Of a stretch of 64,000 nucleotides of DNA, positions 1-22,874 are shown piece after piece. The DNA comes from Eledone cirrhosa. Taxonomy: Eukaryota. The notes beneath the pieces are model-generated. The model was not told the origin of the DNA, ran no database searches, and was given only the letters and a program-made list of their open reading frames with translations. A program made the position numbers and the translations under genes. The stretch's first letter is position 1. Every line of letters begins with the position of its first letter. Location of the stretch: the NCBI GenBank assembly GCA_964016885.1, contig OZ024744.1, positions 124,868,001 to 124,932,000 on the forward strand, read 5' to 3'.

Positions 1-59
1 GAGATATTCAGTGCTAGTGTGGTGTTCTGTCAGTTGTGGAGATTGATGAATCTAAACAG

Positions 60-260
60 AAATATCAACAGCACTTTTCATTTCTGAGTAACACATTTGT
101 TACCAAGTGCTGCATGGCTGGAATGAAAATCAGTGCTGTGAAAACCAAGACATTCATCCTCTCAAGGAAGCTTGTGCAGTGCACTCTACATGTAAATGGA
201 GTCCCACTGAAGCAGGTAGAAAAGTTCATGTATCTCGAAGCTGTGTTCACGAGTGATGAC
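60..260 (+). mobile_element. Non-LTR (RTE-like) reverse transcriptase C-terminal fragment
   Basis: GMKISAVKTK...LKQVEKFMYLEAVFTSD resembles the RT region GLKIN..KTK...V..FKYLG. Confidence 0.65.
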
Positions 261-396
261 AGAGACGGCAAAGGCACAACACACAACAGAAGAAAAGAAC
301 AATGACAATTATTATTATTATTATTATTATTATTTGTTTTATTAGTTTTATTATAATAAAAATTGTGCTGTTAGTTTGCTTGCTATACCATCATGT

Positions 397-484
397 ACCC
401 TAACCCTAAACCTAACCCCAACTCCAACTCTGACCCTAAACCTAACCCCAACCCCAACCCTAACCCTAACCCTAACCCTAACCC
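397..484 (-). repeat. Interstitial telomere-like tract (CCCTAA)n with variants
   Basis: CCCTAA, CCCCAA and ACCTAA hexamers; perfect CCCTAA units at the right end. Confidence 0.9.
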
Positions 485-1408
485 ACGATAGAAGACGTTC
501 GTTACCGCTGGAGCAACGCAAATTACTCCTCGGTTGACGCCAAAAACGAACGCCTTCTCGACGGCTAGCCGCATTTCGTGATCCGCCTTTCGATTGCGCT
601 TCCGTCGCGGAAAAAGAATTGCCTTTATAGGCCGCCGCCGCCCGACCGGACCCACGATAGAAGACGTTCGTTACCGCTGGAGCAACGCAAATTACTCCTC
701 GGTTGACGCCAAAAACGAACGCCTTCTCGACGGCTAGCCGCATTTCGTGATCCGCCTTTCGATTGCGCTTCCGTCGCGGAAAAAGAATTGCCTTTATAGG
801 CCGCCGCCGCCCGACCGGACCCACGATAGAAGACGTTCGTTACCGCTGGAGCAACGCAAATTACTCCTCGGTTGACGCCAAAAACGAACGCCTTCTCGAC
901 GGCTAGCCGCATTTCGTGATCCGCCTTTCGATTGCGCTTCCGTCGCGGAAAAAGAATTGCCTTTATAGGCCGCCGCCGCCCGACCGGACCCACGATAGAA
1001 GACGTTCGTTACCGCTGGAGCAACGCAAATTACTCCTCGGTTGACGCCAAAAACGAACGCCTTCTCGACGGCTAGCCGCATTTCGTGATCCGCCTTTCGA
1101 TTGCGCTTCCGTCGCGGAAAAAGAATTGCCTTTATAGGCCGCCGCCGCCGCCCGACCGGACCCACGATAGAAGACGTTCGTTACCGCTGGAGCAACGCAA
1201 ATTACTCCTCGGTTGACGCCAAAAACGAACGCCTTCTCGACGGCTAGCCGCATTTCGTGATCCGCCTTTCGATTGCGCTTCCGTCGCGGAAAAAGAATTG
1301 CCTTTATAGGCCGCCGCCGCCGCCCGACCGGACCCACGATAGAAGACGTTCGTTACCGCTGGAGCAACGCAAATTACTCCTCGGTTGACGCCAAAAACGA
1401 ACGCCTTC
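481..1408 (+). repeat. 169/172-bp CpG-rich tandem repeat (5 units plus a partial); putative rDNA spacer/ETS subrepeat
   Basis: Units start at 481, 650, 819, 988, 1160 and 1332; length differs by one GCC. The ETS/IGS identity is inferred from its position upstream of the 18S start. Confidence 0.9.
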
Positions 1409-1765
1409 CGGTTCGGGCGACGTAAAAGTCTGTAGCCTTTTCGCCGATCCTCGACGATTATCCGCCTTCCGAACAACCGCCTTTCCGCCGTCACAGCAGT
1501 AGGTACTCGTCCGTCGTAATAGCCGTCATTTTAATGCAGGAGAAACGCCTAAATGCACTGCGATTAACGACGATCTACGACGCGCTTACTCTTCCTTGCT
1601 GCGACGAAGGTTTCGTTCGGCTTTTCGTCGTGGACCCGGTCAGGTCATGCCGCTGATCTCGCGTTGCGTCGTTACCGCTGGAGCAACGCAAATTACTCCT
1701 CGTTTAACGCCAACATCGAACGCGCTTCGGTTCTCGGTCGTCGTTGTTTTGTTTCGTGCGGAAGA
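1409..1765 (+). other. Putative 5' external transcribed spacer-like sequence
   Basis: CpG-rich, directly 5' of the 18S start, and contains a partial copy of the 169-bp unit at about 1671-1720. Confidence 0.55.
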
Positions 1766-1950
1766 TACCTGGGTGATCCTGCCAGTAGTCATATGCTTGT
1801 CTCAAAGCTTAAGCCATGCAAGTGGAAGTTCATGCCGTAAACGAAAATGGTGAAACCGCGAATGGCTCAGGAACCGGATCTAATCCTCGGGACCGTATTC
1901 CTCACCGCGAGGAGAGGATAACTGTGGCAATTCTAGAGCTAATACATGCA
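1766..1950 (+). pseudogene. 18S rRNA 5' fragment
   Basis: TACCTGGGTGATCCTGCCAGTAGTCATATGCTTGTCTCAAAG..AAGCCATGCA; GAAACCGCGAATGGCTCA; GGATAACTGTGGCAATTCTAGAGCTAATACATGC. These are conserved eukaryotic SSU 5' motifs; the gene is truncated after about 185 nt. Confidence 0.95.
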
Positions 1951-1956
1951 ATTGAG

Positions 1957-4900
1957 ATCGGAGAGGGAGCGATCCGTCTGCTTGATTCCGATAACGAACG
2001 AGACATTCGTATCCGAAAGAACGTTTGTCTGGAAACTGGTGAGTCAGTGAGTCGAAAAAAAAAATATCTCGGTGGTAGTAGCAAATATTCGAACGAGACA
2101 TTCGTATGCGAAAGAACGTTTGTCGGTGGTAGTAGCAAATATTCGAACGAGACATTCGTATGCGAAAGAACGTTTGTCGGTGGTAGTAGCAAATATTCGA
2201 ACGAGACATTCGTATGCGAAAGAACGTTTGTCTGGAAGTGGCGATCCATGCCCGGTGGATAGTTGGTTCCGGGTTTTACTATGATTGTTGCAAAACAGAA
2301 ACTTAAAGGGATTGACAGAATTTGCGATTCCAGAGAGAGGGCGATCCGTCTGCTTGATTCCGATAACGAACGAGACATTCGTATCCGAAAGAACGTTTGT
2401 CTGGAAACTGGTGAGTCAGTGAGTCGAAAAAAAAATATCTCGGTGGTAGTAGCAAATATTCGAACGAGACATTCGTATGCGAAAGAACGTTTGTCGGTGG
2501 TAGTAGCAAATATTCGAACGAGACATTCGTATGCGAAAGAACGTTTGTCTGGAAGTGGCGATCCATGCCCGGTGGATAGTTGGTTCCGGGTTTTACTATG
2601 ATTGTTGCAAAACAGAAACTTAAAGGGATTGACAGAATTTGCGATTCCGGAGAGGGGGCGATCCGTCTGCTTGATTCCGATAACGAACGAGACATTCGTA
2701 TCCGAAAGAACGTTTGTCTGGAAACTGGTGAGTCAGTGAGTCGAAAAAAAAAATATCTCGGTGGTAGTAGCAAATATTCGAACGAGACATTCGTATGCGA
2801 AAGAACGTTTGTCGGTGGTAGTAGCAAATATTCGAACGAGACATTCGTATGCGAAAGAACGTTTGTCTGGAAGTGGCGATCCATGCCCGGTGGATAGTTG
2901 GTTCCGGGTTTTACTATGATTGTTGCAAAACAGAAACTTAAAGGGATTGACAGAATTTGCGATTCCGGAGAGGGGGCGATCCGTCTGCTTGATTCCGATA
3001 ACGAACGAGACATTCGTATCCGAAAGAACGTTTGTCTGGAAACTGGTGAGTCAGTGAGTCGAAAAAAAAAATATCTCGGTGGTAGTAGCAAATATTCGAA
3101 CGAGACATTCGTATGCGAAAGAACGTTTGTCGGTGGTAGTAGCAAATATTCGAACGAGACATTCGTATGCGAAAGAACGTTTGTCGGTGGTAGTAGCAAA
3201 TATTCGAACGAGACATTCGTATGCGAAAGAACGTTTGTCTGGAAGTGGCGATCCATGCCCGGTGGATAGTTGGTTCCGGGTTTTACTATGATTGTTGCAA
3301 AACAGAAACTTAAAGGGATTGACAGAATTTGCGATTCCAGAGAGAGGGCGATCCGTCTGCTTGATTCCGATAACGAACGAGACATTCGTATCCGAAAGAA
3401 CGTTTGTCTGGAAACTGGTGAGTCAGTGAGTCGAAAAAAAAATATCTCGGTGGTAGTAGCAAATATTCGAACGAGACATTCGTATGCGAAAGAACGTTTG
3501 TCTGGAAGTGGCGATCCATGCCCGGTGGATAGTTGGTTCCGGGTTTTACTATGATTGTTGCAAAACAGAAACTTAAAGGGATTGACAGAATTTGCGATTC
3601 CGGAGAGGGGGCGATCCGTCTGCTTGATTCCGATAACGAACGAGACATTCGTATCCGAAAGAACGTTTGTCTGGAAACTGGTGAGTCAGTGAGTCGAAAA
3701 AAAAAATATCTCGGTGGTAGTAGCAAATATTCGAACGAGACATTCGTATGCGAAAGAACGTTTGTCGGTGGTAGTAGCAAATATTCGAACGAGACATTCG
3801 TATGCGAAAGAACGTTTGTCGGTGGTAGTAGCAAATATTCGAACGAGACATTCGTATGCGAAAGAACGTTTGTCTGGAAGTGGCGATCCATGCCCGGTGG
3901 ATAGTTGGTTCCGGGTTTTACTATGATTGTTGCAAAACAGAAACTTAAAGGGATTGACAGAATTTGCGATTCCGGAGAGAGGGCGATCCGTCTGCTTGAT
4001 TCCGATAACGAACGAGACATTCGTATCCGAGAGAACGTTTTTCTGGAAACTGGTGAGTCAGTGAGTCGAAAAAAAAATATCTCGGTGGTAGTAGCAAATA
4101 TTCGAACGAGACATTCGTATGCGAAAGAAAAATATCTCGGTGGTAGTAGCAAATATTCGAACGAGACATTCGTATGCGAAAGAACGTTTGTCTGGAAGTG
4201 GCGATCCATGCCCGGTGGATAGTTGGTTCCGGGTTTTACTATGATTGTTGCAAAACAGAAACTTAAAGGGATTGACAGAATTTGCCATTCCGGAGAGGGG
4301 GCGATCCGTCTGCTTGATTCCGATAACGAACGAGACATTCGTATCCGAAAGAACGTTTGTCTGGAAACTGGTGAGTCAGTGAGTCGAAAAAAAAATATCT
4401 CGGTGGTAGTAGCAAATATTCGAACGAGACATTCGTATGCGAAAGAACGTTTGTCTGGAAGTGGCGATCCATGCTCGGTGGATAGTTGGTTCCGGGTTTT
4501 ACTATGATTGTTGCAAAACAGAAACTTAAAGGGATTGACAGAATTTGCGATTCCGGAGAGGGGGCGATCCGTCTGCTTGATTCCGATAACGAACGAGACA
4601 TTCGTATCCGAAAGAACGTTTGTCTGGAAACTGGTGAGTCAGTGAGTCGAAAAAAAAATATCTCGGTGGTAGTAGCAAATATTCGTATGCGAAAGAAAAG
4701 ATCTCGGTGGTAGTAGCAAATATTCGAACGAGACATTCGTAGGCGAAAGAAAAATATCTCGGTGGTAGTAGCAAATATTCGAACGAGACATTCGTATTCG
4801 AAAGAACGTTTGTCTGGAAGTTGCGATCCATGCCCGGTGGATAGTTGGTTCCGGGCTTTACTATGATTGTTGCAAAACAGAAACTTAAAGGGATTGACAG

Positions 4901-7900
4901 AATTTGCGATTCCGGAGAGGGGGCGATCCGTCTGCTTGATTTCGATAACGAACGAGACATTCGTATCCGAAAGAACGTTTGTCTGGAAACTGGTGAGTCA
5001 GTGAGTCGAAAAAAAAAATATCTCGGTGGTAGTAGCAAATATTCGAACGAGACATTCGTATGCGAAAGAACGTTTGTCGGTGGTAGTAGCAAATATTCGA
5101 ACGAGACATTCGTATGCGAAAGAACGTTTGTCGGTGGTAGTAGCAAATATTCGAACGAGACATTCGTATGCGAAAGAACGTTTGTCTGGAAGTGGCGATC
5201 CATGCCCGGTGGATAGTTGGTTCCGGGTTTTACTATGATTGTTGCAAAACAGAAACTTAAAGGGATTGACAGAATTTGCGATTCCAGAGAGAGGGCGATC
5301 CGTCTGCTTGATTCCGATAACGAACGAGACATTCGTATCCGAAAGAACGTTTGTCTGGAAACTGGTGAGTCAGTGAGTCGAAAAAAAAATATCTCGGTGG
5401 TAGTAGCAAATATTCGAACGAGACATTCGTATGCGAAAGAACGTTTGTCGGTGGTAGTAGCAAATATTCGAACGAGACATTCGTATGCGAAAGAACGTTT
5501 GTCTGGAAGTGGCGATCCATGCCCGGTGGATAGTTGGTTCCGGGTTTTACTATGATTGTTGCAAAACAGAAACTTAAAGGGATTGACAGAATTTGCGATT
5601 CCGGAGAGGGGGCGATCCGTCTGCTTGATTCCGATAACGAACGAGACATTCGTATCCGAAAGAACGTTTGTCTGGAAACTGGTGAGTCAGTGAGTCGAAA
5701 AAAAAAATATCTCGGTGGTAGTAGCAAATATTCGAACGAGACATTCGTATGCGAAAGAACGTTTGTCGGTGGTAGTAGCAAATATTCGAACGAGACATTC
5801 GTATGCGAAAGAACGTTTGTCTGGAAGTGGCGATCCATGCCCGGTGGATAGTTGGTTCCGGGTTTTACTATGATTGTTGCAAAACAGAAACTTAAAGGGA
5901 TTGACAGAATTTGCGATTCCGGAGAGGGGGCGATCCGTCTGCTTGATTCCGATAACGAACGAGACATTCGTATCCGAAAGAACGTTTGTCTGGAAACTGG
6001 TGAGTCAGTGAGTCGAAAAAAAAAATATCTCGGTGGTAGTAGCAAATATTCGAACGAGACATTCGTATGCGAAAGAAAAATATCTCGGTGGTAGTAGCAA
6101 ATATTCGAACGAGACATTCGTATGCGAAAGAACGTTTGTCTGGAAGTGGCGATCCATGCCCGGTGGATAGTTGGTTCCGGGTTTTACTATGATTGTTGCA
6201 AAACAGAAACTTAAAGGGATTGACAGAATTTGCGATTCCGGAGAGGGGGCGATCCGTCTGCTTGTTTCCGATAACGAACGAGACATTCGTATCCGAAAGA
6301 ACGTTTGTCTGGAAACTGGTGAGTCAGTGAGTCGAAAAAAAAAATATCTCGGTGGTAGTAGCAAATATTCGAACGAGACATTCGTATGCGAAAGAACGTT
6401 TGTCGGTGGTAGTAGCAAATATTCGAACGAGACATTCGTATGCGAAAGAACGTTTGTCGGTGGTAGTAGCAAATATTCGAACGAGACATTCGTATGCGAA
6501 AGAACGTTTGTCTGGAAGTGGCGATCCATGCCCGGTGGATAGTTGGTTCCGGGTTTTACTATGATTGTTGCAAAACAGAAACTTAAAGGGATTGACAGAA
6601 TTTGCGATTCCGGAGAGAGGGCGATCCGTCTGCTTGATTCCGATAACGAACGAGACATTCGTATCCGAGAGAACGTTTGTCTGGAAACTGGTGAGTCAGT
6701 GAGTCGAAAAAAAAATATCTCGGTGGTAGTAGCAAATATTCGAACGAGACATTCGTATGCGAAAGAAAAATATCTCGGTGGTAGTAGCAAATATTCGAAC
6801 GAGACATTCGTATGCGAAAGAACGTTTGTCTGGAAGTGGCGATCCATGCCCGGTGGATAGTTGGTTCCGGGTTTTACTATGATTGTTGCAAAACAGAAAC
6901 TTAAAGGGATTGACAGAATTTGCGATTCCGGAGAGGGGGCGATCCGTCTGCTTGATTCCGATAACGAACGAGACATTCGTATCCGAAAGAACGTTTGTCT
7001 GGAAACTGGTGAGTCAGTGAGTCGAAAAAAAAATATCTCGGTGGTAGTAGCAAATATTCGTATGCGAAAGAAAAGATCTCGGTGGTAGTAGCAAATATTC
7101 GAACGAGACATTCGTAGGCGAAAGAAAAATATCTCGGTGGTAGTAGCAAATATTCGAACGAGACATTCGTATTCGAAAGAACGTTTGTCTGGAAGTTGCG
7201 ATCCATGCCCGGTGGATAGTTGGTTCCGGGCTTTACTATGATTGTTGCAAAACAGAAACTTAAAGGGATTGACAGAATTTGCGATTCCGGAGAGGGGGCG
7301 ATCCGTCTGCTTGATTTCGATAACGAACGAGACATTCGTATCCGAAAGAACGTTTGTCTGGAAACTGGTGAGTCAGTGAGTCGAAAAAAAAAATATCTCG
7401 GTGGTAGTAGCAAATATTCGAACGAGACATTCGTATGCGAAAGAACGTTTGTCGGTGGTAGTAGCAAATATTCGAACGAGACATTCGTATGCGAAAGAAC
7501 GTTTGTCGGTGGTAGTAGCAAATATTCGAACGAGACATTCGTATGCGAAAGAACGTTTGTCTGGAAGTGGCGATCCATGCCCGGTGGATAGTTGGTTCCG
7601 GGTTTTACTATGATTGTTGCAAAACAGAAACTTAAAGGGATTGACAGAATTTGCGATTCCAGAGAGAGGGCGATCCGTCTGCTTGATTCCGATAACGAAC
7701 GAGACATTCGTATCCGAAAGAACGTTTGTCTGGAAACTGGTGAGTCAGTGAGTCGAAAAAAAAATATCTCGGTGGTAGTAGCAAATATTCGAACGAGACA
7801 TTCGTATGCGAAAGAACGTTTGTCTGGAAGTGGCGATCCATGCTCGGTGGATAGTTGGTTCCGGGTTTTACTATGATTGTTGCAAAACAGAAACTTAAAG

Positions 7901-8272
7901 GGATTGACAGAATTTGCGATTCCGGAGAGGGGGCGATCCGTCTGCTTGATTCCGATAACGAACGAGACATTCGTATCCGAAAGAACGTTTGTCTGGAAAC
8001 TGGTGAGTCAGTGAGTCGAAAAAAAAATATCTCGGTGGTAGTAGCAAATATTCGTATGCGAAAGAAAAGATCTCGGTGGTAGTAGCAAATATTCGAACGA
8101 GACATTCGTATGCGAAAGAAAAATATCTCGGTGGTAGTAGCAAATATTCGAACGAGACATTCGTATTCGAAAGAACTTTTGTCTGGAAGTTGCGATCCAT
8201 GCCCGGTGGATAGTTGGTTCCGGGCTTTACTATGATTGTTGCAAAACAGAAACTTAAAGGAATTGACAGAAT
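1957..8272 (+). repeat. rRNA-mosaic satellite, about 19 units of 263-372 bp (about 209 + 54n)
   Basis: The unit contains 18S-like motifs GATTCCGGAGAGGG, ATTCCGATAACGAACGAGAC and GGTTCCGGG..TTGCAAA..GAAACTTAAAGG.ATTGAC, plus the 28S motif ATCTCGGTGGTAGTAGCAAATATTC. TTGGTTCCGGG recurs at 2263, 2580, 2898, 3270 ... 8214. Confidence 0.93.
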
Positions 8273-8289
8273 TTTCGAATCGACATCAA

Positions 8290-8655
8290 CTCGGCTACGG
8301 CTATCCCGTCGAGTACGAGAGTATCGCGGGATCAGAGCAACGGTTTGCTAGGCTGCCTCTGAGCGATAACGGCTGAACGCCTCCTCTAAGCCGGAACCCT
8401 AGCCGGACCCGAGTTGTTTTTCGACAAGCGTCTCGACCTTCTTAAGGCCCATGCCTTAGTTTGGCGATTGCCGTCCGTTCGCCGACGGCGGCAGCGTCAG
8501 CGGAAATGCCATTCTGTGACGACTACGACGATTCGTCGTCGTCGTCGTCCATTCGATTTCCTGAAAGAGATAGAGACTAAAGTGATCAAATTGTTCGGAG
8601 TTACGTGCTTAGTAGAGCAGCTACCACACTGCAATCTATTGAGAGTTTTCTGACG
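8290..8655 (+). pseudogene. Degenerate 28S rRNA 3' end
   Basis: Sarcin-ricin-loop-like AGTACGAGAG at 8312, then GCTGAACGCCTC(CTC)TAAG, then the terminal AGAGCAGCTACCACACTGCAATCTATTGA, in the correct LSU order. Confidence 0.85.
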
Positions 8656-9394
8656 AACGATACAATCCGCCCACGTGGCGCCAGAAAGGGAGAAGAAAAG
8701 AAAAGTTAGACGCCGCCGATCGATCGGTTCGTTGTTTTACGTGTACACAGCTTGTGTGTGTGTCTGTATGTGATACAAGCCGCCTATCCGTCTTCCAAGT
8801 AAGTTTTGTGTGTAGACTGCGGAAAGAAATCCAATCCGCCGTCTAGGCGGTTCTGCCGCCGACCCATACTTTTGCGAGTCGCTCCCGGGAAAGACAGGCG
8901 GCAAGACGGCGTGTATACACGACGCCTTCCGTCTTCCGCCTCGAACTCGGGCAAACGTTCCTTTATTCGTCCACGCCTTCCCGCTTCGATCGCGAGAAAG
9001 TAATCAATCTGTTTTGTGTGTGTGTCTGTGTGTGATACAAATTTGTTTTCTTAATTTGATAACCATGAATTGTTTCAACACCGGCCCTTTTAAGGGCCAC
9101 TTATATTTTCAATAATCAGTTTAAATGGGTTGCACCGTAGCCACTTGGTAATACACTGCAAATCTCCCGTCAATCTATGAAGGTTTTGTAGTAGATTAGA
9201 TCAAAACACAATCAGCAAGACAGTAATGGAATGAATAATATAAACATTTGTTTATAATTAAAGCCTTAAGATGTCCCTCCCTCCCTCCCTTCCTTCCTTC
9301 CTTCCTTCCTTCCTTCCTTCCTTCCTTACGATATACACTTTAATAACATTGAAACTTATTTAATAAGTTTAAATTTTAAACACTTTTTATTCAG

Positions 9395-9525
9395 ACGTAC
9401 CGCGATAAGTAACTAGATATGTTCTAACGAATAATCCGCGATGTGGCGAGGATTACCGCGATAGGAAATTAGATACGTTCCAAAGAAATATCCGCGAAAA
9501 GTGAACCGCGATATAGCGGGTTCAC
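9395..9525. mobile_element. Possible Tigger/pogo-type MITE terminus
   Basis: Repeated CCGCGA motifs ending GTGAACCGCGATATAGCGG; resemblance is from memory only. Confidence 0.35.
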
Positions 9526-9590
9526 CAGCCAGTGTATTACTGGTACTTTATTTTATCGACCCCCATAAGGATGAAAGGCAAAGTTAACTG
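9526..9590 (-). mobile_element. SINE fragment
   Basis: Reverse complement of the core TTAACTTTGCCTTTCATCCTT..GGGGTCGATAAAATAAAG.ACCAGT seen at about 21050-21100. Confidence 0.75.
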
Positions 9591-9689
9591 TGCAATAACA
9601 AAGGGAGATAACCTCGTCTTTTTTTTTTTTACGGAGTTATTTCCCTTTAAATTTTATCTATTACTTATGATGATACAATTTAATCAGTT

Positions 9690-9816
9690 CTTAGCTGTCG
9701 AGACACTGCATCCTTTAAAACCTCCATGGAACAAGCTACCTGCAACAGTTGTTAGCTGTCGAGACACTGCATCTTTTAAAACCTCCATGGAACAAACTAC
9801 CTGCATCAGTTGTTAG
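9690..9816 (+). mobile_element. CR1 ORF2 3' fragment, tandemly duplicated (about 60 bp)
   Basis: Encodes WNKLPATVVSCRDTASFK, matching the C-terminus of the CR1 ORF at 23424-24515. Confidence 0.85.
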
Positions 9817-9873
9817 GGTCTGAGTTCAAATCACGCCGAGGAGGTTAACTTTGCCTTTCATCCTTACGGGGTC
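9817..9873 (+). mobile_element. SINE fragment
   Basis: GTCTGAGTTCAAATCACGCCGAGG..TTAACTTTGCCTTTCATCCTTACGGGGTCG, near-identical to 21026-21080. Confidence 0.8.
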
Positions 9874-10084
9874 GGTCGGAAAACGAACCATTCCCGGTTC
9901 GCTTTCGAAGCGGGTTTCCGAAAACAGCGCTTCTCTCGACCGGGCCCGTCGTCCGCTCGGCGGTGGTTTTCATCGTCCCAGGCACGGCTAACAGGCGGAG
10001 ACGGGACAAACGCGCGTGTTCCTTTTTTTATCAGCCGCAGCGCCGTTCGTATATATGCTTAGGTTGTTTTTTTTTTAAATATCC

Positions 10085-10315
10085 TAAGTTAAGTTGGGGC
10101 TAAGTTAAGTTGGGGCTAAGTTAAGTTGAGGTTAAGTTGAGTTGGGGTTAAGTTAAGTGGGGGTTAAGTTAAGCTGGGGTTAAGTTAAGTTGAGGTTAAG
10201 TTAAGTTGGGGTTAAGTCAAGTTGGGGTTAAGTTAAGTTGGGGTTAAGTTAGGTTGGGGTTAAGTTAGGTTGGGGTTAAGTTAAGTTGGGGTTAAGTTAG
10301 GTTGCGGTTAAGTTA
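10085..10315 (+). repeat. G-rich 16-bp repeat (AAGTTAAGTTGGGGTT)n, telomere-like
   Basis: About 14 units with TTGGGG/TTAGG variants. Confidence 0.9.
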
Positions 10316-13300
10316 CATTCGCCGCCGGACTTCAGCTTCCTCATTTAGCATGGGCAGTCTTTCTTGAAAATCACACCACACACAGCAAATGTGTGTCCGC
10401 ACATGTACCAGTAATTACAGATCGATTCCGGTGAAAATTCACTGAAAACGGGCCATCCGGCCCTGTGCGTCGATCGTGGGCCGGCCGGATGTTGACGGAT
10501 CGATGTGTAATTAGAAGTACATGTGCGGACACTCATTGGCTGTGCGTGGTATGCATTTCAGCAAGATATCTCCGTAACATCAAGAGTTATGGCTGTGGAG
10601 GCACACCTAGTCAAACGTAAACAAGGTCTGGAGCGTTTACGCTTCGCGATTTTGTTTACGTTTGACTAGGTGTGCCTCCACAGCCACAACTCTTGATGTT
10701 ACGGAGATATCTTGCTGAAATGCATACCGCGCACAGCCAATGAGTGTCCGCACATGTACTTCTAATTACACATCGATCCGTCAACATCCGGCCGGCCCAC
10801 GATCGACGCACAGGGCCGGATGGCCCGTTTTCAGTGAATTCTCACCGGAATCGATCTGTAATTACTGGTACATGTGCGGAGACACATTTGCTGTGTGTGG
10901 TGTGATTTTCAAGAAAAACTGCCCATGCTAAATGAGGAAGCTGAAGTCCGCCGGCGAATGGTGTGCTTCGAAGAAAACTAATTCGAAAATGACCGTTTGC
11001 AGGCGGAGTAACCTTTTCGATCGTGGGCCAGCCGCCCGTGGTGGGATCCATCTGTAATTACTGGTACATGTGCGGACATACATTTGCTGTGTGTGGTGTG
11101 ATTTTCAAGAAGAACTGCCCATGCTAAATGAGGAAGCTGAAGTCCGCCGGCGAATGGTGTGCTTCGAAGAAAACTAATTCGAAAATGACCGTTTGCAGGC
11201 GGGGTAACCTTTTCGATCGTGGGCCAGCCGCCCGTGGTGGGATCCATCTGTAATTACTGGTACATGTGCGGACACACATTTGCTGTGTGTGGTGTGATTT
11301 TCGAGAAAGACTGCCCATGCTAAATGAGGAAGCTGAAGTCCGCCGGCGAATGGTGTGCTTCGAAGAAAACTAATTCGAAAATGACTATTTGCCGGCGGAA
11401 TCACCTTTTCGGTCCTGGTCCGGCCGGATCTTGCCGGATCGATCGGAAATTTGTGGACCATGTTCGGAAGGCCATTGTGCATGTGTGGTGAAAAAAATTT
11501 GTGTCGAAATCTTCTCGGAAAATAACGGATCGCCGGCGGAGATTGCCATTTCGATCGTGGGCCGGCCGGATCTTGTCGGATCGATTCGGACATATGTGCA
11601 TCGTGTTCGCAAGGCCCTTGTCTATGTGTGGTGTGATTTTCATAAAGAAATTCCGAAAAACCCAGTTTTAAATCTGATTTCGCCAAAGAATTTTGGCTAT
11701 CAGATCGGGTTGAAAGGTATGGTTTCAGGTCGATCTGAAAGTCTAAAATGGAATTCATTCGGTTAGCTAACTATTGATATATCGGAGATATCTTTCTGAA
11801 AATCACACCACACACTCCCAATGAGTGTCTGCACATGTACCAGTAATTACAGATGGATCCCACCACGGGCGGCCGGCCCACGATCGAAAAGGTTACTCCG
11901 AAGCACACCATTCGCCGGCGGAATTCATTTAGCATGGGCAGTTTTTCTCGAAAATCACACCACACACAGCCAATGAGTGTCCGCACATGTACCAGTAATT
12001 ACAGATGGATCCCACCACGGGCGGCTGGCCCACGATCGAAAAGGTTACTCCGCCTGCAAACGGTCATTTTCGAATTCGTTTTCTTCGAAGCACACGATTC
12101 GCCGGCGGACTTCAGCTGCCTCATTTAGCATGGGCAGTTTTTCTCGAAAATCACACCACACACAGCAAATGTGTGTCCGCACATGTACCAGTAATTACAG
12201 ATCGATTCCGGTGAAAATTCACTGAAAACGGGCCATCCGGCCCTGTGCGTCGATCGTGGGCCGGCCGGATGTTGACGGATCGATGTGTAATTAGAAGTAC
12301 ATGTGCGGACACTCATTGGCTGTGCGTGGTATGCATTTCAGCAAGATATCTCCGTAACATCAAGAGTTATGGCTGTGGAGGCACACCTAGTCAAACGTAA
12401 ACAAGGTCTGGAGCGTTTACGCTTCGCGATTTTGTTTACGTTTGACTAGGTGTGCCTCCACAGCCACAACTCTTGATGTTACGGAGATATCTTGCTGAAA
12501 TGCATACCGCGCACAGCCAATGAGTGTCCGCACATGTACTTCTAATTACACATCGATCCGTCAACATCCGGCCGGCCCACGATCGACGCACAGGGCCGGA
12601 TGGCCCGTTTTCAGTGAATTCTCACCGGAATCGATCTGTAATTACTGGTACATGTGCGGAGACACATTTGCTGTGTGTGGTGTGATTTTCAAGAAAAACT
12701 GCCCATGCTAAATGAGGAAGCTGAAGTCCGCCGGCGAATGGTGTGCTTCGAAGAAAACTAATTCGAAAATGACCGTTTGCAGGCGGAGTAACCTTTTCGA
12801 TCGTGGGCCAGCCGCCCGTGGTGGGATCCATCTGTAATTACTGGTACATGTGCGGACATACATTTGCTGTGTGTGGTGTGATTTTCAAGAAGAACTGCCC
12901 ATGCTAAATGAGGAAGCTGAAGTCCGCCGGCGAATGGTGTGCTTCGAAGAAAACTAATTCGAAAATGACCGTTTGCAGGCGGGGTAACCTTTTCGATCGT
13001 GGGCCAGCCGCCCGTGGTGGGATCCATCTGTAATTACTGGTACATGTGCGGACACACATTTGCTGTGTGTGGTGTGATTTTCGAGAAAGACTGCCCATGC
13101 TAAATGAGGAAGCTGAAGTCCGCCGGCGAATGGTGTGCTTCGAAGAAAACTAATTCGAAAATGACTATTTGCCGGCGGAATCACCTTTTCGGTCCTGGTC
13201 CGGCCGGATCTTGCCGGATCGATCGGAAATTTGTGGACCATGTTCGGAAGGCCATTGTGCATGTATGGTGAAAAAAATTTGTGTCGAAATCTTCTCGGAA

Positions 13301-15925
13301 AATAACGGATCGCCGGCGGAGATTGCCATTTCGATCGTGGGCCGGCCGGATCTTGTCGGATCGATTCGGACATATGTGCATCGTGTTCGCAAGGCCCTTG
13401 TCTATGTGTGGTGTGATTTTCATAAAGAAATTCCGAAAAACCCAGTTTTAAATCTGATTTCGCCAAAGAATTTTGGCTATCAGATCGGGTTGAAAGGTAT
13501 GGTTTCAGGTCGATCTGAAAGTCTAAAATGGAATTCACTCGGTTAGCTAACTATTGATATTTCGGAGATATCTTTCTGAAAATCACACCACACACTCCCA
13601 ATGAGTGTCTGCACATGTACCAGTAATTACAGATGGATCCCACCACGGGCGGCCGGCCCACGATCGAAAAGGTTACTCCGAAGCACACCATTCGCCGGCG
13701 GAATTCATTTAGCATGGGCAGTTTTTCTCGAAAATCACACCACACACAGCCAATGAGTGTCCGCACATGTACCAGTAATTACAGATGGATCCCACCACGG
13801 GCGGCTGGCCCACGATCGAAAAGGTTACTCCGCCTGCAAACGGTCATTTTCGAATTCGTTTTCTTCGAAGCACACGATTCGCCGGCGGACTTCAGCTGCC
13901 TCATTTAGCATGGGCAGTTTTTCTCGAAAATCACACCACACACAGCAAATGTGTGTCCGCACATGTACCAGTAATTACAGATCGATTCCGGTGAAAATTC
14001 ACTGAAAACGGGCCATTCTGCCCTGTGCGTCGATCGTGGGCCGGCCGGATGTTGACGGATCGATGTGTAATTAGAAGTACATGTGCGGACACTCATTGGC
14101 TGTGCGTGGTATGCATTTCAGCAAGATATCTCCGTAACATCAAGAGTTATGGCTGTGGAGGCACACCTAGTCAAACGTAAACAAGCTCTGGAGCGTATAC
14201 GCTTCGCGATTTTGTTTACGTTTGACTAGGTGTGCCTCCACAGCCACAACTCTTGATGTTACGGAGATATCTTGCTGAAATGCATACCACGCACAGCCAA
14301 TGAGTGTCCGCACATGTACTTCTAATTACACATCGATCCGTCAACATCCGGCCGGCCCACGATCGACGCACAGGGCCGGATGGCCCGTTTTCAGTGAATT
14401 TTCACCGGAATCGATCTGTAATTACTGGTACATGTGCGGACACACATTTGCTGTGTGTGGTGTGATTTTCACGAAAAACTGCCCATGCTAAATGAGGAAG
14501 CTGAAGTCCGCCGGCGAATGGTGTGCTTCGAAGAAAACTAATTCGAAAATGACCGTTTGCAGGCGGAGTAACCTTTTCGATCGTGGGCCAGCCGCCCGTG
14601 GTGGGATACATCTGTAATTACTGGTACATGTGCGGACACACATTTGCTGTGTGTGGTGTGATTTTCGAGAAAGACTGCCCATGCTAAATGAGGAAGCTGA
14701 AGTCCGCCGGCGAATGGTGTGCTTCGAAGAAAACTAATTCGAAAATGACTATTTGCCGGCGGAATCACCTTTTCGGTCCTGGTCCGGCCGGATCTTGCCG
14801 GATCGATCGGAAATTTGTGGACCATGTTCGGAAGGCCATTGTGCATGTGTGGTGAAAAAAATTTGTGTCGAAATCTTCTCGGAAAATAACGGATCGCCGG
14901 CGGAGATTGCCATTTCGATCGTGGGCCGGCCGGATCTTGTCGGATCGATTCGGACATATGTGCATCGTGTTCGCAAGGCCCTTGTCTATGTGTGGTGTGA
15001 TTTTCATAAAGAAATTCCGAAAAACCCAGTTTTAAATCTGATTTCGCCAAAGAATTTTGGCTATCAGATCGGGTTGAAAGGTATGGTTTCAGGTCGATCT
15101 GAAAGTCTAAAATGGAATTCACTCGGTTAGCTAACTATTGATATATCGGAGATATCTTTCTGAAAATCACACCACACACTCCCAATGAGTGTCTGCATAT
15201 GTACCAGTAATTACAGATGGATCCCACCACGGGCGGCCGGCCCACGATCGAAAAGGTTACTCCGAAGCACACCATTCGCCGGCGGAATTCATTTAGCATG
15301 GGCAGTTTTTCTCGAAAATCACACCACACACAGCCAATGAGTGTCCGCACATGTACTAGTAATTACAGATGGATCCCACCACGGGCGGCTGGCCCACGAT
15401 CGAAAAGGTTACTCCGCCTGCAAACGGTCATTTTCGAATTAGTTTTCTTCGAAGCACACCATTCGCCGGCGGACTTCAGCTTCCTCATTTAGCATGGGCA
15501 GTTTTTCTTGAAAATCACACCACACACAGCAAATGTGTGTCCGCACATGTACCAGTAATTACAGATCGATTCCGGTGAAAATTCACTGAAAACGGGCCAT
15601 TCGGCCCTGTGCGTCGATCGTGGGCCGGCCGGATGTTGACGGATCGATGTGTAATTAGAAGTACATGTGCGGACACTCATTGGCTGTGCGTGGTATGCAT
15701 TTCACTAAGATATCTCCGTAACATCAAGAGTTATGGCTGTGGAGGCACACCTAGTCAAACGTAAACAAGGTCTGGAGCGTTTACGCTTCGCGATTTTGTT
15801 TACGTTTGACTAGGTGTGCCTCCACAGCGACAACTCTTGATGTTACGGAGATATCTTGCTGAAATTCATACCACGCACAGCCAATGAGTGTCCGCACATC
15901 TACCTGTAATTACACATCGATCCGA
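10316..15925. repeat. Palindromic higher-order satellite (periods 1780, 1780, 1584 bp) built from 196-bp subunits in inverted blocks
   Basis: Symmetry centres near 10638, 12418, 14198 and 15782: GGCTGTGGAGGCACACCTAGTCAAACGTAAACAA-spacer-TTGTTTACGTTTGACTAGGTGTGCCTCCACAGC. The same ORF translations appear on both strands. Confidence 0.95.
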
Positions 15926-16004
15926 CGACGGACAGAGTATTCGGTTTATTTTCTTGACATATTTCTTTACATATCGTCCAGGCATGCACTTTTTCCATGA
16001 TTAG

Positions 16005-16066
16005 TTCTGTTGACGGCCCGCTTTCCAAAATACCTTATCCTGTGCAACGCCGGGTACCACTGCTAG
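16005..16066 (+). mobile_element. Helitron-like 3' terminus
   Basis: GC-rich hairpin CCTGTGCAACGCCGGG, then CTAG followed by T; a related copy lies inverted at 19157. Confidence 0.65.
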
Positions 16067-16285
16067 TATATATATGTGTATGTATATATATATATATATA
16101 TTGGTAAACGGAATAGAAAATTGTGACAAATTGTTCACAGTGAAAAATAGTTTAATTAGGAATAAGTGATAATTAGTAATAGTATTGGTTAGTATTAAGT
16201 TTTGGTTTTAAGTTTTACCGGTTGCGCATTTCTAATGCTTTTCAAAAATAATTTTGAGATAGAGCGTCCGTGATGTTTGCTCTGA

Positions 16286-16329
<44 letters not shown>

Positions 16330-16465
16330 AACAGTAGAAAGGAAAAAGATTTTTTCAGTAGAAATTGCTGAAGAGATTCTTTCAGTGTAATTTCAAAACA
16401 TTAATTTATTTATAAAGTGGATATTTCCACATTTAATAATGGCACTGGGTTCAGCATTATATACA

Positions 16466-16810
16466 TTGTCAATTGTGGATTCTACTTTTGGCACAAGGGC
16501 TGCAATTATCCAGTACATTACTGGTACTTTATTATTTATACAAATAATAATTGTTTCTACTTTTGGCACAAGGGCAGCAATTACCCAGTACATTACTGGT
16601 ACTTTATTATTTATACAAATAATAATTGTTTCTACTTTAGGCACAAGGTCAGCAATTACCCAGTACATTACTGGTACTTTATTATTTATACAAATAATAA
16701 TTGTTTCTACTTTAGGCACAAGGTCAGCAATTACCCCAGTACTTTATTTTATCGACCCCGTAAGGATGAAAGAAAAGTTAACCTCAACGGGATTTGAACT
16801 CAGTCTGTAA
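16466..16810 (-). repeat. 75-bp tandem repeat (about 3.7 units) derived from a SINE 3' region, followed by the SINE core
   Basis: CAAATAATAATTG at 16541, 16616 and 16691, then TTTATCGACCCCGTAAGGATGAAAG..GATTTGAACTCAG. Confidence 0.8.
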
Positions 16811-16894
16811 AGGGAGGTAACTGCTGGATTAATTTGGTTAATTAAGTTAACAGAAATTATGAACCGGTTTCTACAGAGCCTTCTGGACATTTAA

Positions 16895-17115
16895 TCCTTT
16901 AGCATTTAAACCAGCCATACCTAGCCAGAATACTCTCACATCTTTCTGTTCAAACCAGCCATAACTGGCCACTCATACTGACGTTAAGGTATTGTTCTCA
17001 ATATAAATAATATCAAAATCTCATAGATTCGATATTATATGAGATAATTATGTAAGATAAAGCCTTTACCACAAAAATACAATAGTATATATAGAGTAAT
17101 AAAAATGCTAAAGGG
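16895..17115. mobile_element. piggyBac-like MITE
   Basis: TTAA|(T/C)CCTTTAGCATTT ... AAATGCTAAAGGG|TAAA: terminal inverted repeats with a TTAA-like target site. Confidence 0.75.
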
Positions 17116-17479
17116 TAAAAGTAGCTTATTATTTTGTGAGCTCTTGCTACTTATTGCTCTTGTGCATCAAGAACATACACAGCTTACATTTTGTTGCTAA
17201 TCTCACTGAGATCCAACTACATCTCTTGTTTATCCATAGTTTGGAATTTCTACCTACTCCTTTCCTTTAGAATGATCAAGGCCATTTTCTTGTGGGGATC
17301 TAGGCCCTGTTTTCCTTTCTATTTTGCCAAGTTATCTTACATCACTTTCATTCTAGACCATGCTTCCAGGTTTGGAATTTCTCCTCTAATTTTACCACAG
17401 ATTAAGTGACAAGGGTTCAATCATGTGCATACAGGAGTTCCCATGGACAGCCAGTAATATGTAATAGCCTGCAGGATGA

Positions 17480-19010
17480 TAATAAACAGAAGAGGGTTAA
17501 TTACAGAGCCCTGATAGAGGGTTAATAACAGAGCCCTGATAGACTTGTTCACTCAACTCCTCACTATAGCCATCATTACTTTTAACCTTACTGACTGCTC
17601 CTCCATACATGGCTTTTACTGCTCTCACAAGCCACTCATATACCCCTAGTTTTCTAAGTTATACACCAGATTAGGGAAGGGGGAAGTCTCACAGAAGCTC
17701 TCTCTGGGTCAACAAATGCCAAGTAGAGGGGCTTATTTTAGCTAGGTACTACTCTTGCAGTTGCCACACAAGGAAGAGGACATCAGTGGTACTTTTACCT
17801 GGCACAAATCCAAACTTCATCTCATCTAGGTTAACTTGGTCCCTAATCAGCTGTGTTATAAATCTAACACCTTCATGAAGTGGTCCATCTAATATCTCTA
17901 TAGTTTTCTAGCTCTAGTACATCTCCTTTGCCCTTGTAGCAGTTGATGATGATGATACTACACCATTTATTTGGTATGACACCATTTTGTATTACATGCT
18001 GTACGATACCAGTGGTTAAGATGTGACCCACCATCCCAGATACTTTCAGTATCTCAGCAACTATCACCAATGGACAAGATACTTTCTCTGTCTTCATATC
18101 CTTAATTACCTTACTTCATATCCTTAATTACCTTACTGCTTACTTGTATGGCTGGACCCTCTGTTGGGCCCACTTTCCGTAGACTATCTTCCTCCCATGC
18201 ATTCTCCTCATTCAGTAATCTTTCATAAAGGCATTTCCATGTTACAAAGGTTGGCTGAAAAGTTCATAGACTATCAATGATAGCATGATGCTAGAGCTGT
18301 GAAATCTTGCCTGCATTAATTTCAACTCTTCTTATTAATAACTGCATTGTTTCCTTCCAGGGACTATGTTGAAAAATAAACCTCATTTGGTCATTCCATG
18401 AGTGTATCTTGGTCTGCCTATGAACTTTTCAGCTGACCCTATTCAGCATCAGTGAGCCCAAATGCCCCATTATCATCCTGGACACACTTTACCCCAACAT
18501 CACAATTTGCCCTCACACACTGCCTCACAATCCTGAACATCTCATGTATTTCATCCTCACATCATAAAACCAACTGAAATTATATATTCTCTGCTTCCCT
18601 CCTTGCAAAGAATACTTCTTGCCTAGCTTCCTGTAGTGTACCCTCCAGCTGCCTCCATTCTGCCATTATTCCATGCCTGTCTCTTGGCCTTAACTGTCTC
18701 ATCTACCCTAGTGTTTCACCACCAAGATACTCTCCTCTCTGAAGCCCTGCTCCAGCCACAGATCTAGTTTGACACCTTCAGCAAAGGTTCTTTAAGGAAC
18801 TCCCACTGTTCCCCTATATTGTATGTTTCTATTTGTTCTTCCTTACTGTTGTAAAGATCAAACAAAATATCTCTAAATTTGGAACTGGCTGAGGGGTCCT
18901 TTAACTTCCATATCCTTCTCCTCCAAGTTGCCCTCAGTCTTCAAGTTCATCTAAGTCTATGAAATCACTAACTACTGGGTTATGTTGGGAGGTGCATTCT
19001 TCCCCAGGGG
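17480..19010 (-). mobile_element. Degenerate RTE-clade LINE (linker plus RT N-terminal part)
   Basis: GVIPNKWCSIIIINCYKGKGDVLELENYRDI, then FGFVPGKSTTD and QGSVI on the minus strand; many stops. Confidence 0.85.
18245..18441. mobile_element. Tc1/mariner-type MITE nested in the RTE
   Basis: TIRs AGGTTGGCTGAAAAGTTCATAG ... CTATGAACTTTTCAGCTGACCCT, flanked by TA. Confidence 0.7.
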
Positions 19011-19156
19011 GTGGGGATTGTGTGTTTACAAATGTCAATATCTCATCTTCTGGTGAGGATAAAAATCTGACTGGCATGCTCCTCTGACCAATAGGTGTTG
19101 AAGTGGTTGTCGGGTAAACGTTAAGACCCTCTGATATACATATATATATATATATA

Positions 19157-19215
19157 CTAGCAGTGGTACCCGGCGTTGCACGGGATAACGTATTTCGGAA
19201 CGCGGGCCGCCATCT
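19157..19215 (-). mobile_element. Helitron-like 3' terminus
   Basis: Minus strand reads TTATCCCGTGCAACGCCGGGTACCACTGCTAG|T next to (TA)n. Confidence 0.65.
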
Positions 19216-19479
19216 TCCACTTCAGCCGGTCGCCCTAAAGTGTTGGCTATTCAGTCTACTTGAGGCCAGTTGGTGAGGGGGGGTAAAGCTTTCAGTGTGC
19301 TACTACCCTCACGGTCAAATAGAAAGGGAGAGGAAGAAAAGTCAGCGTTAATATCGTGCTACACGTTTGAAAGGTTGGATGACCTTAGAGTTCACCAGGG
19401 TGGGGGGTTCTAAAAGTATCTATCTTGGTATTTTATCTTAGAAGTAATCATTACAGAGTGTACTGGGTGTATTTTAGTG

Positions 19480-20330
19480 GGCAGTAATTCCATAAAGAAC
19501 ACAGTATAATCTGTGGACACAAGCCTTGCAGTGTGATTACAGGCAGGTTAATGGGAAAGATAGATTATATATGTGACATGATGTACATGAGAAGTGAGGA
19601 CACAGACCACACATGAAATAGATTCCTACAACTGTCAGGGAGGCTCCCTAGAATTACAGATGACATATTTCAATATCTCGGTGATCAAGTTAGCAGTGGA
19701 GGAAGAATCTCTAAAAGTGTAATACCCAGGATAAGGACAGGCTGGAAGAAGTTTAGAGTACTGTTCCATCTGTTGACAACAAAGGGCTTCTCTCTCAGAA
19801 TGGAGGCTAGACTGCTTGATACTTATGTGTGGTCTGCAATCTACACCCCAGCCATGCCCCTTCCACTACCACTCCTTAGCTATTTCTCTCCATTAATACT
19901 CCTCACATTTCAAGCAGTTTTCTCATCTCAATGAAAGAAAAATATTGGGCTCAAGAGAAGTCTTCAGTTATGCCATGGTGTGGCAACCTCCCTAGGGTTG
20001 GGCAGAGTGTAAATGAGAGTGAAATTAGGTATGAGAGGGATCATATGCAGTATACAAGAGAGTAGATTACATTGGTATGGTCATGTGATGGGTATAAAGG
20101 ATGACAGCTGTATAAAAATGTGCTGGGCAATCAAAGTTGATGGAAGTTATGAAGGCGGAAGACCCAGGATGACCTGGGATGAGGTGATAAAAGATGACTT
20201 TGCACAATTGCAACTCTCAAAGACAATGACACAGGATAGAGATCTTGAGATGTATGCAGCAATACAGAAGGCCTGCTTTCCAATGTGCACGGACTCAAAC
20301 ATACATCTAGTAGGCCCCTCCTAACCACTA
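19480..20330 (+). mobile_element. Degenerate RTE-clade LINE, C-terminal part
   Basis: FQYLGDQVSSGG..RIRTGWKKFRVL; RLHWYGHVM..GRPRMTWDEVIKDD. Confidence 0.85.
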
Positions 20331-20375
20331 TACTCCTTTCCAAACTCCCACACTCCCACTTCTGTACACACCACC

Positions 20376-20945: not shown

Positions 20946-20949
20946 GTCC

Positions 20950-21170: not shown

Positions 21171-21175
21171 CCTAC

Positions 21176-21239
<64 letters not shown>

Positions 21240-22118: not shown

Positions 22119-22161
<43 letters not shown>

Positions 22162-22419: not shown

Positions 22420-22462
<43 letters not shown>

Positions 22463-22690: not shown

Positions 22691-22692
<2 letters not shown>

Positions 22693-22779
<87 letters not shown>

Positions 22780-22812
22780 GTGTGTGTGTGTATATATATA
22801 CACACACACGTG

Positions 22813-22874
<62 letters not shown>

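What the first reader, a model, noticed from the sequence alone, without database searches (positions are those of the whole stretch)
481..8655. Collapsed rDNA unit: 18S start and 28S end retained, interior replaced by an rRNA-fragment satellite
Seen: spacer-like repeats, the exact 18S 5' start (1766), 6.3 kb of satellite and the 28S 3' terminus (about 8655), all on one strand and in rDNA order. No 5.8S or ITS sequence was recognised. The start-to-end span is about 6.9 kb in copy A and 4.7 kb in copy B. Known: rDNA units run ETS-18S-ITS-5.8S-ITS-28S-IGS in tandem. Inferred: a pseudo-rDNA family that may keep Pol I entry and exit signals and yield a pre-rRNA-mimic lncRNA or rRNA-like small RNAs. 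I know of no described element with this layout.
Basis: partly seen in the sequence, partly recalled or inferred. Interest (0 to 1): 0.9.

Follow-up and report, generated by a model that had tools for sequence, protein, structure and literature searches.

The report
Scrambled ribosomal-gene satellite, amplified and transcribed
A broken copy of the ribosomal RNA gene unit, whose middle is a tandem repeat stitched from short out-of-order rRNA pieces, is repeated dozens of times in this genome and is likely transcribed at a low level, but it lacks the putative ribosomal promoter and is most likely a non-functional passenger of a larger repeat.

Summary
The layout is real: 5'ETS pieces, 18S nt 1-191, a satellite (19 monomers in copy A, 12 in B), the last ~460 nt of 28S, then spacer pieces. 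It sits in a ~37-kb macro-repeat: 61 copies and 998 monomers in the assembly, 44 copies in one 1.7-Mb array. Its junctions also occur in sequencing data, including another individual's raw reads. Each monomer is a non-colinear, all-sense mosaic of 18S, 28S and ITS1 pieces of 18-58 nt, several joined at 4-10-nt microhomologies. Two corrections: an ITS1 piece is present (19/19), and the upstream repeats come from the 5'ETS about 200 nt downstream of the putative Pol I start motif, which is absent from the array. Helix 1 of 18S and the 28S sarcin-ricin loop are mutated. One RNA-like run holds the monomer (depth 114) but not a neighbouring control satellite (0; 25-60 expected from DNA carry-over), so it is likely transcribed; strand, start and polymerase are unknown. 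Internally deleted rDNA copies are common here (8 of 17 loci examined). Verdict: a new variant of rDNA pseudogene/rDNA-derived satellite, most likely a passenger. A regulatory rRNA-mimic RNA is not excluded.

The parts
397..484 (+). Telomere-like (CCCTAA)n block with variant units; it abuts the element, sharing 4 letters with the first ETS repeat
   Evidence: and sequence. It is the only block of 3 or more perfect units in unit A.
481..1408 (+). 5.5 tandem copies of a 169/172-bp unit amplified from a 5'ETS subrepeat; each full copy carries a derived TATA-like word absent from 45S copies
   Evidence: 93-96% to the 45S ETS. Derived word in 10 repeat copies in the window and in 0 of 17 45S/orphon contexts.
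1409..1765 (+). 5'ETS pieces; about 840 bp of the canonical ETS is replaced by about 50 bp of ETS repeat
1766..1956 (+). 18S rRNA nt 1-191, decayed (4 substitutions, 2 indels)
1957..8282 (+). rRNA-mosaic satellite, 19 monomers of 263-372 bp. Order: 18S ~574-592 / 18S 2042-2080 / ITS1 289-307 / ~40 nt unassigned / (28S 2083-2121 + ITS1 289-307) x1-3 / 28S ~1393-1413 / 18S 1843-1900
   Evidence: whole monomer seen as a circular contig in runs X4 and X5
8283..8669 (+). 28S rRNA 3' end (canonical nt ~4642-5103) with three internal deletions of 15-33 bp and a disrupted sarcin-ricin loop
8670..9049 (+). About 30 nt of 3'ETS, a short further piece, then IGS pieces from about 2.07-2.35 kb behind the 28S end; stops short of the first spacer promoter motif
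9039..9122 (+). Histone-type 3' stem-loop, part of a dispersed palindromic repeat; lacks the purine-rich stretch that follows the genome's real H4 stem-loop
9880..10085 (+). Separate 28S fragment (canonical nt ~690-895), out of order, followed by a 16-bp satellite
29732..30574 (+). Second, independent cluster of 5'ETS fragments in the same macro-repeat unit
36667..43050 (+). Copy B of the element: ETS repeats 36667-37600, 18S 37958-38148, satellite 38149-42283 (12 monomers), 28S end 42284-42670, IGS pieces
1..36186 (.). One unit of the macro-repeat that carries the element, with other satellites, a broken LINE, SINE pieces and microsatellites
   Evidence: unit spacing median 37.5 kb over 43 intervals

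Best explanation
The element is a decayed, promoter-less copy of the 45S rDNA unit whose interior is a tandem array of a chimeric monomer made of short 18S, 28S and ITS1 pieces; it was likely built by microhomology-guided template switching during DNA repair, multiplied as cargo of a ~37-kb macro-repeat, and is likely transcribed weakly without a ribosomal or other selected function. Steps: (1) shown: derivation from this genome's own 45S unit, scrambled order, microhomologies, loss of the putative start motif, mutated rRNA cores; (2) inferred: a displaced rDNA copy of the kind that is common in this genome went through several short homology-guided jumps, and the resulting ~260-bp chimera expanded by unequal exchange or slippage; (3) shown: the whole neighbourhood was amplified as near-identical units that differ mainly in satellite length; (4) indicated by one run: monomer RNA exists; inferred: it comes from read-through or a cryptic start, probably Pol II, and is a by-product.
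For: All six significant source segments are sense-strand and non-colinear. Junction homologies of 5 nt (18S/18S), 10 nt (18S/28S), 4 nt (28S/ITS1), and 4 and 3 nt in the ETS; the chance per random junction is 0.7%, 0.005%, 2%, 2% and 6%. One of the six junctions tested (18S 191 to satellite) gave no exact homology at the position tried. 8 of 17 other rDNA loci examined carry internal deletions, one fusing ETS straight to the 28S 3' end. The element includes IGS from 2 kb behind 28S, and no poly-A tail or target duplication was seen. Start motif: 40 hits in three 45S regions, 0 in the window; 27 hits in the assembly, none on C28, C18 or unplaced contigs. Helix 1 and the sarcin-ricin loop are mutated; 90 mismatches in 1,494 aligned bases. 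The rDNA-derived parts are no better conserved between copies than the LINE/SINE flanks (mostly 99-100%). Satellite length varies 0.7-13.4 kb over 33 copies. The monomer folds no better than shuffles. Neighbourhood: a 16-bp satellite fills both 10-kb stretches scanned on the left flank, and other satellites lie in the unit.
Against: The monomer is present in run X5 while the adjacent control satellite of the same unit is not, so transcription is at least regional, not uniform noise over the unit. The 5' part has lost 0 of 76 CpG sites against 9 of 98 in the 3' parts (Fisher p 0.005, a post hoc test; the 3' CpG loss is not above the non-CpG rate, p 0.62), and its repeats gained a TATA-like word; both would fit a promoter-like head. 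All-sense short pieces fit reverse transcription at least as well as DNA repair.
Confidence: 0.62

Rival explanations
1. Same status (a passenger), different origin: the monomer was made by a retrotransposon reverse transcriptase (R2 or another LINE) jumping between fragments of rRNA and pre-rRNA, and the cDNA was inserted into or recombined with an rDNA copy.
For: All pieces are sense and 18-58 nt long. The element's homology starts inside the transcribed 5'ETS. A broken R2-like element lies in an rDNA copy at C14, and most fetched 28S copies are interrupted at the R2 site. In vivo R2 template jumps to small RNAs (PMC3414825, passages) and mostly sense 28S/LINE-1 chimeras (PMC13174262, passages) are described.
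Against: No retrotransposon sequence is joined to the mosaic; the R2-site insert matches the unit only at one 21-nt stretch 12 kb away from the element. IGS from 2 kb behind 28S is included. Monomer junctions were not listed on chromosomes C1-C17 or C19-C27 (only the first 100 of 998 places are listed, in contig order), so there is no sign of dispersed retrocopies. Junctions carry homology, which end-to-end jumping does not need (own knowledge).
Confidence: 0.22
2. The array is a co-opted locus: the ETS repeats act as a new promoter and give a long RNA with about 17 repeats of conserved 18S/28S motifs that binds ribosome-assembly factors or snoRNAs, seeds nucleolus-associated heterochromatin, or is cut into rRNA-like small RNAs; or the DNA acts as a natural pseudo-NOR.
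For: Monomer RNA in X5 above DNA carry-over. Copy number of the order of the 45S genes (3,693 against 3,633 depth at one diagnostic base in X1). Derived TATA-like word and intact CpG-rich head. A histone-type stem-loop lies 410 nt behind the 28S end.
Against: One run only, at about 3% of the pre-rRNA junction depth per unit (114/17 against 212). No special fold. No sign of constraint beyond the flanks. Free variation of array length. The stem-loop lacks the purine-rich downstream stretch. Synthetic pseudo-NORs are arrays of UBF-binding enhancer elements and are not transcribed (PMC3923965, passages); this element holds only short spacer pieces and no spacer promoter motif.
Confidence: 0.12
3. 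A Pol I-transcribed mini-rDNA that keeps its own entry and exit signals.
For: ETS, 18S start and 28S end are kept in order, and RNA exists. The derived word in the repeats shares 6 letters with the putative start motif.
Against: The putative start motif and the 170 nt after it are absent, and most of the 3' spacer is deleted. The motif's role is inferred from position and likeness to plant and arthropod start sites (PMC6589552 and PMC2590618, passages), not mapped in this species.
Confidence: 0.04
4. Assembly or library artefact.
For: The array is bounded by assembly gaps on both sides, and the C18 copy is rearranged, so placement and copy count are uncertain.
Against: Element-specific contigs at depth 3,600-3,770 and the satellite-to-28S junction in X1; 37 raw reads with the first-monomer base in a RAD run of another individual and study; monomer in X4. 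Monomers per unit are 17.4 in reads and 16.4 in the assembly.
Confidence: 0.01

Closest known systems
Displaced, degrading rDNA units / rDNA pseudogenes (human: Robicheau et al. 2017, PMC5381670, abstract seen)
   Same: 45S plus spacer sequence away from the arrays, decaying, in a satellite-rich setting; many such copies with deletions exist in this genome.
   Different: Here the interior is scrambled and tandemly amplified, and the whole copy is re-amplified to tens or hundreds of near-identical units.
rDNA-derived satellites (tomato IGS-derived repeat: Jo et al. 2009, PMC2679016, abstract seen)
   Same: A satellite that grew inside an altered rDNA unit and spread by segmental duplication.
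   Different: The tomato satellite is an IGS subrepeat and eliminates coding sequence; this monomer is a mosaic of coding and ITS1 pieces framed by the 18S start and 28S end.
SINE28 (Longo et al. 2015, PMC4994717, abstract seen) and 28S/LINE-1 chimeras (PMC13174262, passages seen)
   Same: Genomic elements built from rRNA fragments, the 28S 3' end included; SINE28 is transcribed.
   Different: Those are dispersed retrocopies of one contiguous piece; this is tandem, multi-piece, includes spacers and shows no retroposon tail.
R2 SIDEs, short internally deleted elements (PMC3414825, passages seen)
   Same: Both ends kept and the interior lost, in the rDNA setting.
   Different: SIDEs are deleted retrotransposons that keep working ends; here the rDNA unit itself is deleted and its functional start is lost.
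Pseudo-NORs (PMC3923965, passages seen)
   Same: A megabase array of promoter-less rDNA-derived sequence outside the NOR.
   Different: Pseudo-NORs are synthetic enhancer arrays that bind UBF and are not transcribed; factor binding is untested here, and the rDNA-derived part is only about a fifth of each unit.

Membership tests
Functional 45S rDNA unit | Complete colinear 18S-5.8S-28S | tested here: not met
Functional 45S rDNA unit | Pol I promoter/start site upstream of the ETS | tested here: not met
   Putative motif absent; the motif's role is inferred, not mapped
Functional 45S rDNA unit | Intact conserved cores (18S helix 1, sarcin-ricin loop) | tested here: not met
rDNA pseudogene (orphon) | Derived from the species' own rDNA, outside the arrays, with disabling changes | tested here: met
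rDNA pseudogene (orphon) | No selected function | tested here: inconclusive
   No constraint or fold seen, but RNA is present
rDNA-derived satellite DNA | Head-to-tail array of homogenised monomers of rDNA origin | tested here: met
   998 monomers in the assembly; 41 distinct monomer sequences in 6 arrays; origin mapped
rDNA-derived satellite DNA | Monomer from IGS subrepeats, as in the tomato case | tested here: not met
   Monomer is from 18S, 28S and ITS1
rRNA-derived SINE / retrocopy | Dispersed copies with retroposon tail and target-site duplication | tested here: not met
   Copies confined to the macro-repeat; no tail seen
Pseudo-NOR | Binds UBF and Pol I machinery, secondary constriction, silver staining | not testable with these tools
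   Needs chromatin and cytology data
Regulatory lncRNA locus | Defined, stranded, reproducible transcript | tested here: inconclusive
   One run kept as contigs; no strand, ends or replicate

The most novel reading that the evidence does not exclude
A natural rRNA-decoy locus: tandem 5'ETS repeats that gained a TATA-like start drive a multi-kilobase RNA carrying about 17 repeats of the most conserved 18S and 28S motifs, from an array about as numerous as the real rRNA genes and possibly on the sex chromosome; the RNA titrates ribosome-assembly factors or feeds small RNAs aimed at rDNA and its R2 insertions.
Probability: 0.12. Interest if true: 0.85.

Novelty: new variant of a known kind. Interest (0 to 1): 0.5.

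Why it matters
It catches the birth of a satellite from rRNA coding sequence with its breakpoints still readable, and links three known but separate processes in one locus: rDNA displacement and deletion, homology-guided scrambling, and macro-repeat amplification. In practice, about a thousand assembled monomers hold conserved 18S/28S stretches of the kind used as universal primer sites (own knowledge), and an 18S 5' variant is as deep as the real one in one DNA run. This can distort rDNA copy counts, barcoding and rRNA depletion or mapping in this species. If the RNA has a role, it would be a new kind of rRNA-mimic regulator.

Tried and rejected
Rfam at gathering score on the whole window found only two histone stem-loops; SSU and LSU matches appeared only when the ends were searched alone. 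About 40 nt of the monomer (2025-2066) could not be assigned: 51 of 60 shuffles scored as well against the 45S unit, and nothing beyond A-runs and one 11-mer matched the other fetched loci. An rRNA-like fold was rejected. Coding potential: the long frames over the satellite are repeat read-throughs; they were not searched against protein libraries. A second species sharing the satellite was rejected: run X4 (other organism label) holds both satellites and the ETS at low depth in DNA-like proportion (16.7; 6.6-8.7; 4.2-4.4), which reads as DNA of organism A in that library. A closer donor among other rDNA copies was not found. CpG hypermutability in the 3' part was not significant. Telomerase healing at the 5' seam is possible but untested. 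The absence of unit-specific contigs in X5 is not used against a full-length RNA: the expected depth of about 7 lies beside paths of depth 200-3,900 that contig building would likely favour. Two look-ups of earlier findings returned nothing. Literature searches that found no element of this layout: (listings only; the library lacks most subscription papers; no supplements were read).
Full report
Setting. The window is G000:C28:124,868,001-124,932,000 of a 3.0-Gb assembly. The organism looks like an octopod: this rests on a recalled SINE signature and on the very long 18S (2.9 kb) and 28S (5.1 kb) seen, and was not tested with a tool. The window holds about 1.8 units of a large repeat, and the finding is one part of that unit.

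Reference. A 5.8S search gave 29 matches from 40 candidates scored. I fetched tandem 45S units at C12, C25 and C4 and annotated the C12 unit (28S and 5.8S by Rfam; 18S ends read from the sequence). These copies carry an insert at the R2 site and may be silent. The 18S alleles in the RNA-like run X5 match them at all five diagnostic positions listed (1773, 1825, 1844, 1879, 1911-1915), so they are a valid sequence proxy.

Anatomy. From 481 the element reads: 5.5 copies of a 169/172-bp unit that is 93-96% like a 5'ETS subrepeat; ETS pieces with about 840 bp missing; 18S nt 1-191; the satellite; 28S nt ~4642-5103; and short 3'ETS and IGS pieces to about 9049. Rfam scores the two ends above threshold when they are searched alone. 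Mapping the monomer to the 45S unit gave sense-strand pieces from 18S 581-592 (574-592 in internal monomers, read from the sequence), 18S 2042-2080, ITS1 289-307, 28S 2083-2121, 28S 1396-1413 and 18S 1843-1900; on the reverse strand only A-runs matched. The null maximum was 16 in 200 shuffles. The pieces scoring 36, 36, 28 and 19 exceed it. The 28S 1396-1413 piece (15) is borderline there but beat 60 of 60 shuffles in a gapped test. The 18S 581-592 piece (12) is within the null and rests on its overlap with the next piece. About 40 nt stay unassigned. The order is not colinear. Junction homologies are 5, 10 and 4 nt in the monomer and 4 and 3 nt in the ETS, each rare by chance; one junction tested showed none (the 10-nt word is read from the printed flanks because my coordinate was off by one).

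Signals. The motif TATTATATAGGG lies about 2.2 kb upstream of 18S and again in each spacer repeat of the 45S units: 40 hits in three regions, none in the window on either strand. With its flanks it has 27 hits in the assembly, none on the array contigs. It resembles start motifs reported for plants and arthropods (PMC6589552 and PMC2590618, passages); its role here is inferred. In agreement, the ETS repeats downstream of it are deep in X5. The element's homology begins about 180-220 nt after this motif, directly behind a telomere-like block. One lead remains: the element's repeats have a derived TATA-like word in 10 copies in the window, against 0 of 17 contexts in other rDNA copies, and no CpG loss (0 of 76 sites, against 9 of 98 in the 3' parts; post hoc). 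Helix 1 of 18S and the sarcin-ricin loop are mutated, and the monomer folds no better than shuffles on either strand.

Copy number and reality. The satellite-to-28S junction occurs 61 times, all exact: 44 on C28 over 1.72 Mb, 1 on C18, 16 on six small contigs. A monomer junction occurs 998 times, 16.4 per unit. Units are spaced at a median of 37.5 kb, and the satellite spans 0.7-13.4 kb in the 33 copies measured. Non-satellite blocks are mostly 99-100% identical between the copies compared, with rDNA-derived parts and flanks alike, while the element differs from the 45S unit at 90 of 1,494 aligned bases. The rearrangement is therefore much older than the amplification. In run X1, possibly the assembled sample, element-specific contigs have depth 3,600-3,770 against 3,633-4,526 for 45S contigs, and monomers per unit come to 17.4. 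In X4 the ratio is nearer 1 to 4-5. The element is thus between about a fifth as abundant as the 45S genes and equal to them; these depths are rough. Raw RAD reads from another individual and study (X22) cover the monomer junctions, and 37 carry the first-monomer base next to the 18S seam. The array is bounded by assembly gaps and flanked on the left by a long 16-bp satellite.

Transcription. Run X5 has no recorded type. It behaves as RNA: 18S depth 3,903 against 212 for the ETS-18S junction, where DNA run X1 gives 4,526 and 3,633. It holds a 289-nt contig covering the whole monomer at depth 113.9, with one other letter and one gap. As a control I laid the neighbouring 1.6-1.8-kb satellite (368 copies in the assembly). 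Its unique part has depth about 14,000 per contig in X1, 6.6-8.7 in X4 and 0 in X5, although X5 keeps a contig of depth 17. DNA carry-over would have given 25-60. The monomer is therefore likely transcribed, at roughly 3% of the pre-rRNA junction per unit. Limits: one run, contigs only, no strand, ends or length; the monomer's A-run could favour capture by oligo-dT; no element-specific 5' contig was seen.

Context in the genome. Of 17 other rDNA loci aligned to the 45S unit, 8 carry internal deletions, among them C14:23.82 Mb where the ETS joins the 28S 3' end directly. Their 18S starts carry 0-4 private changes, comparable to this element's six. Collapsed rDNA copies are thus a recurring product here; what is special is the scrambled, amplified interior.

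Mechanism. I favour a displaced rDNA copy rearranged by short homology-guided jumps during DNA repair, local tandem growth of the chimera, then amplification with its neighbourhood, with weak incidental transcription (0.62). Origin by reverse-transcriptase jumping is a serious rival (0.22), since R2-like elements are present and such jumps are described (PMC3414825 and PMC13174262, passages). A co-opted regulatory RNA or pseudo-NOR is not excluded (0.12). A Pol I mini-gene is unlikely (0.04).

Comparison and novelty. It works like an rDNA pseudogene (PMC5381670, abstract) that spawned a satellite (PMC2679016, abstract). It differs from the tomato case in using coding and ITS1 pieces, and from SINE28 (PMC4994717, abstract) in being tandem and multi-piece. 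A review of rDNA and mobile elements (PMC10946416, passages) named no such layout in the passages seen. Searches listed none, within a library that lacks most subscription journals; no supplements were read. I rate it a new variant of a known kind, interest 0.5.

Noticed in passing
G000 45S copies at C12:25.07, C25:23.02, C4:352.07, C2:7.58, C3:366.05, C6:69.59, C4:153.43, C2:170.23, C10:26.69 Mb (L017-L032, L059-L073): 9 of 11 fetched 28S copies that reach the R2 site are interrupted or end there, most by a 1.2-1.4-kb insert (the C12 one has no long sense frame); one more resumes just behind a broken R2-like element and one is intact. This suggests an abundant non-autonomous R2-site element, and that the active uninserted rDNA array is not assembled.
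   Followed up: partly
G000:C14:23.16-23.18 and 23.82-23.83 Mb (L069-L071): Two strongly collapsed rDNA copies lie next to long degenerate telomere-repeat arrays; all 50 blocks of 3 or more telomeric units in 447 kb of non-array loci were here.
   Followed up: partly
window 9039-9122; C18 4.9-12.7 Mb; C28 126.58-126.91 Mb: A dispersed palindromic repeat whose arms each hold a histone-type stem-loop, about 90 bp apart on opposite strands; dozens of copies cluster on C18 and beside the array, and 150-390 bp of their flanks also match window 9133-9520.
   Followed up: partly
window 10316-15924 and 44291-53870; C18 6.735-6.85 Mb: A second satellite of 1.6-1.8-kb units built from 196-bp subunits in both orientations with long inverted repeats; 368 copies in the assembly, and the 196-bp family is extremely deep in DNA reads.
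   Followed up: partly
G000:C28:124.66-124.69 Mb; window 10085-10315: A 16-bp telomere-like satellite fills both 10-kb stretches scanned left of the array, in opposite orientation to a 14-copy patch inside each unit; possibly pericentromeric.
   Followed up: no
contig C28 (136.5 Mb): It breaks the descending size order of the numbered chromosomes (C25 is 29 Mb), as a sex chromosome listed last would; cephalopods have a ZZ/Z0 system (10.1101/2024.12.09.627507, passages). Z linkage is untested.
   Followed up: no
window 23424-26295 (minus strand): A frameshifted LINE with endonuclease- and reverse-transcriptase-like frames (named by eye, not scanned) is carried in most units and lost from some.
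   Followed up: no
G000:C18:6.70-6.76 Mb (L051-L057): A single rearranged copy of the macro-repeat with a truncated 28S end and a second partial start, merging into a pure array of the 1.8-kb satellite; either the ancestral site, a transposed copy or a scaffolding error.
   Followed up: partly
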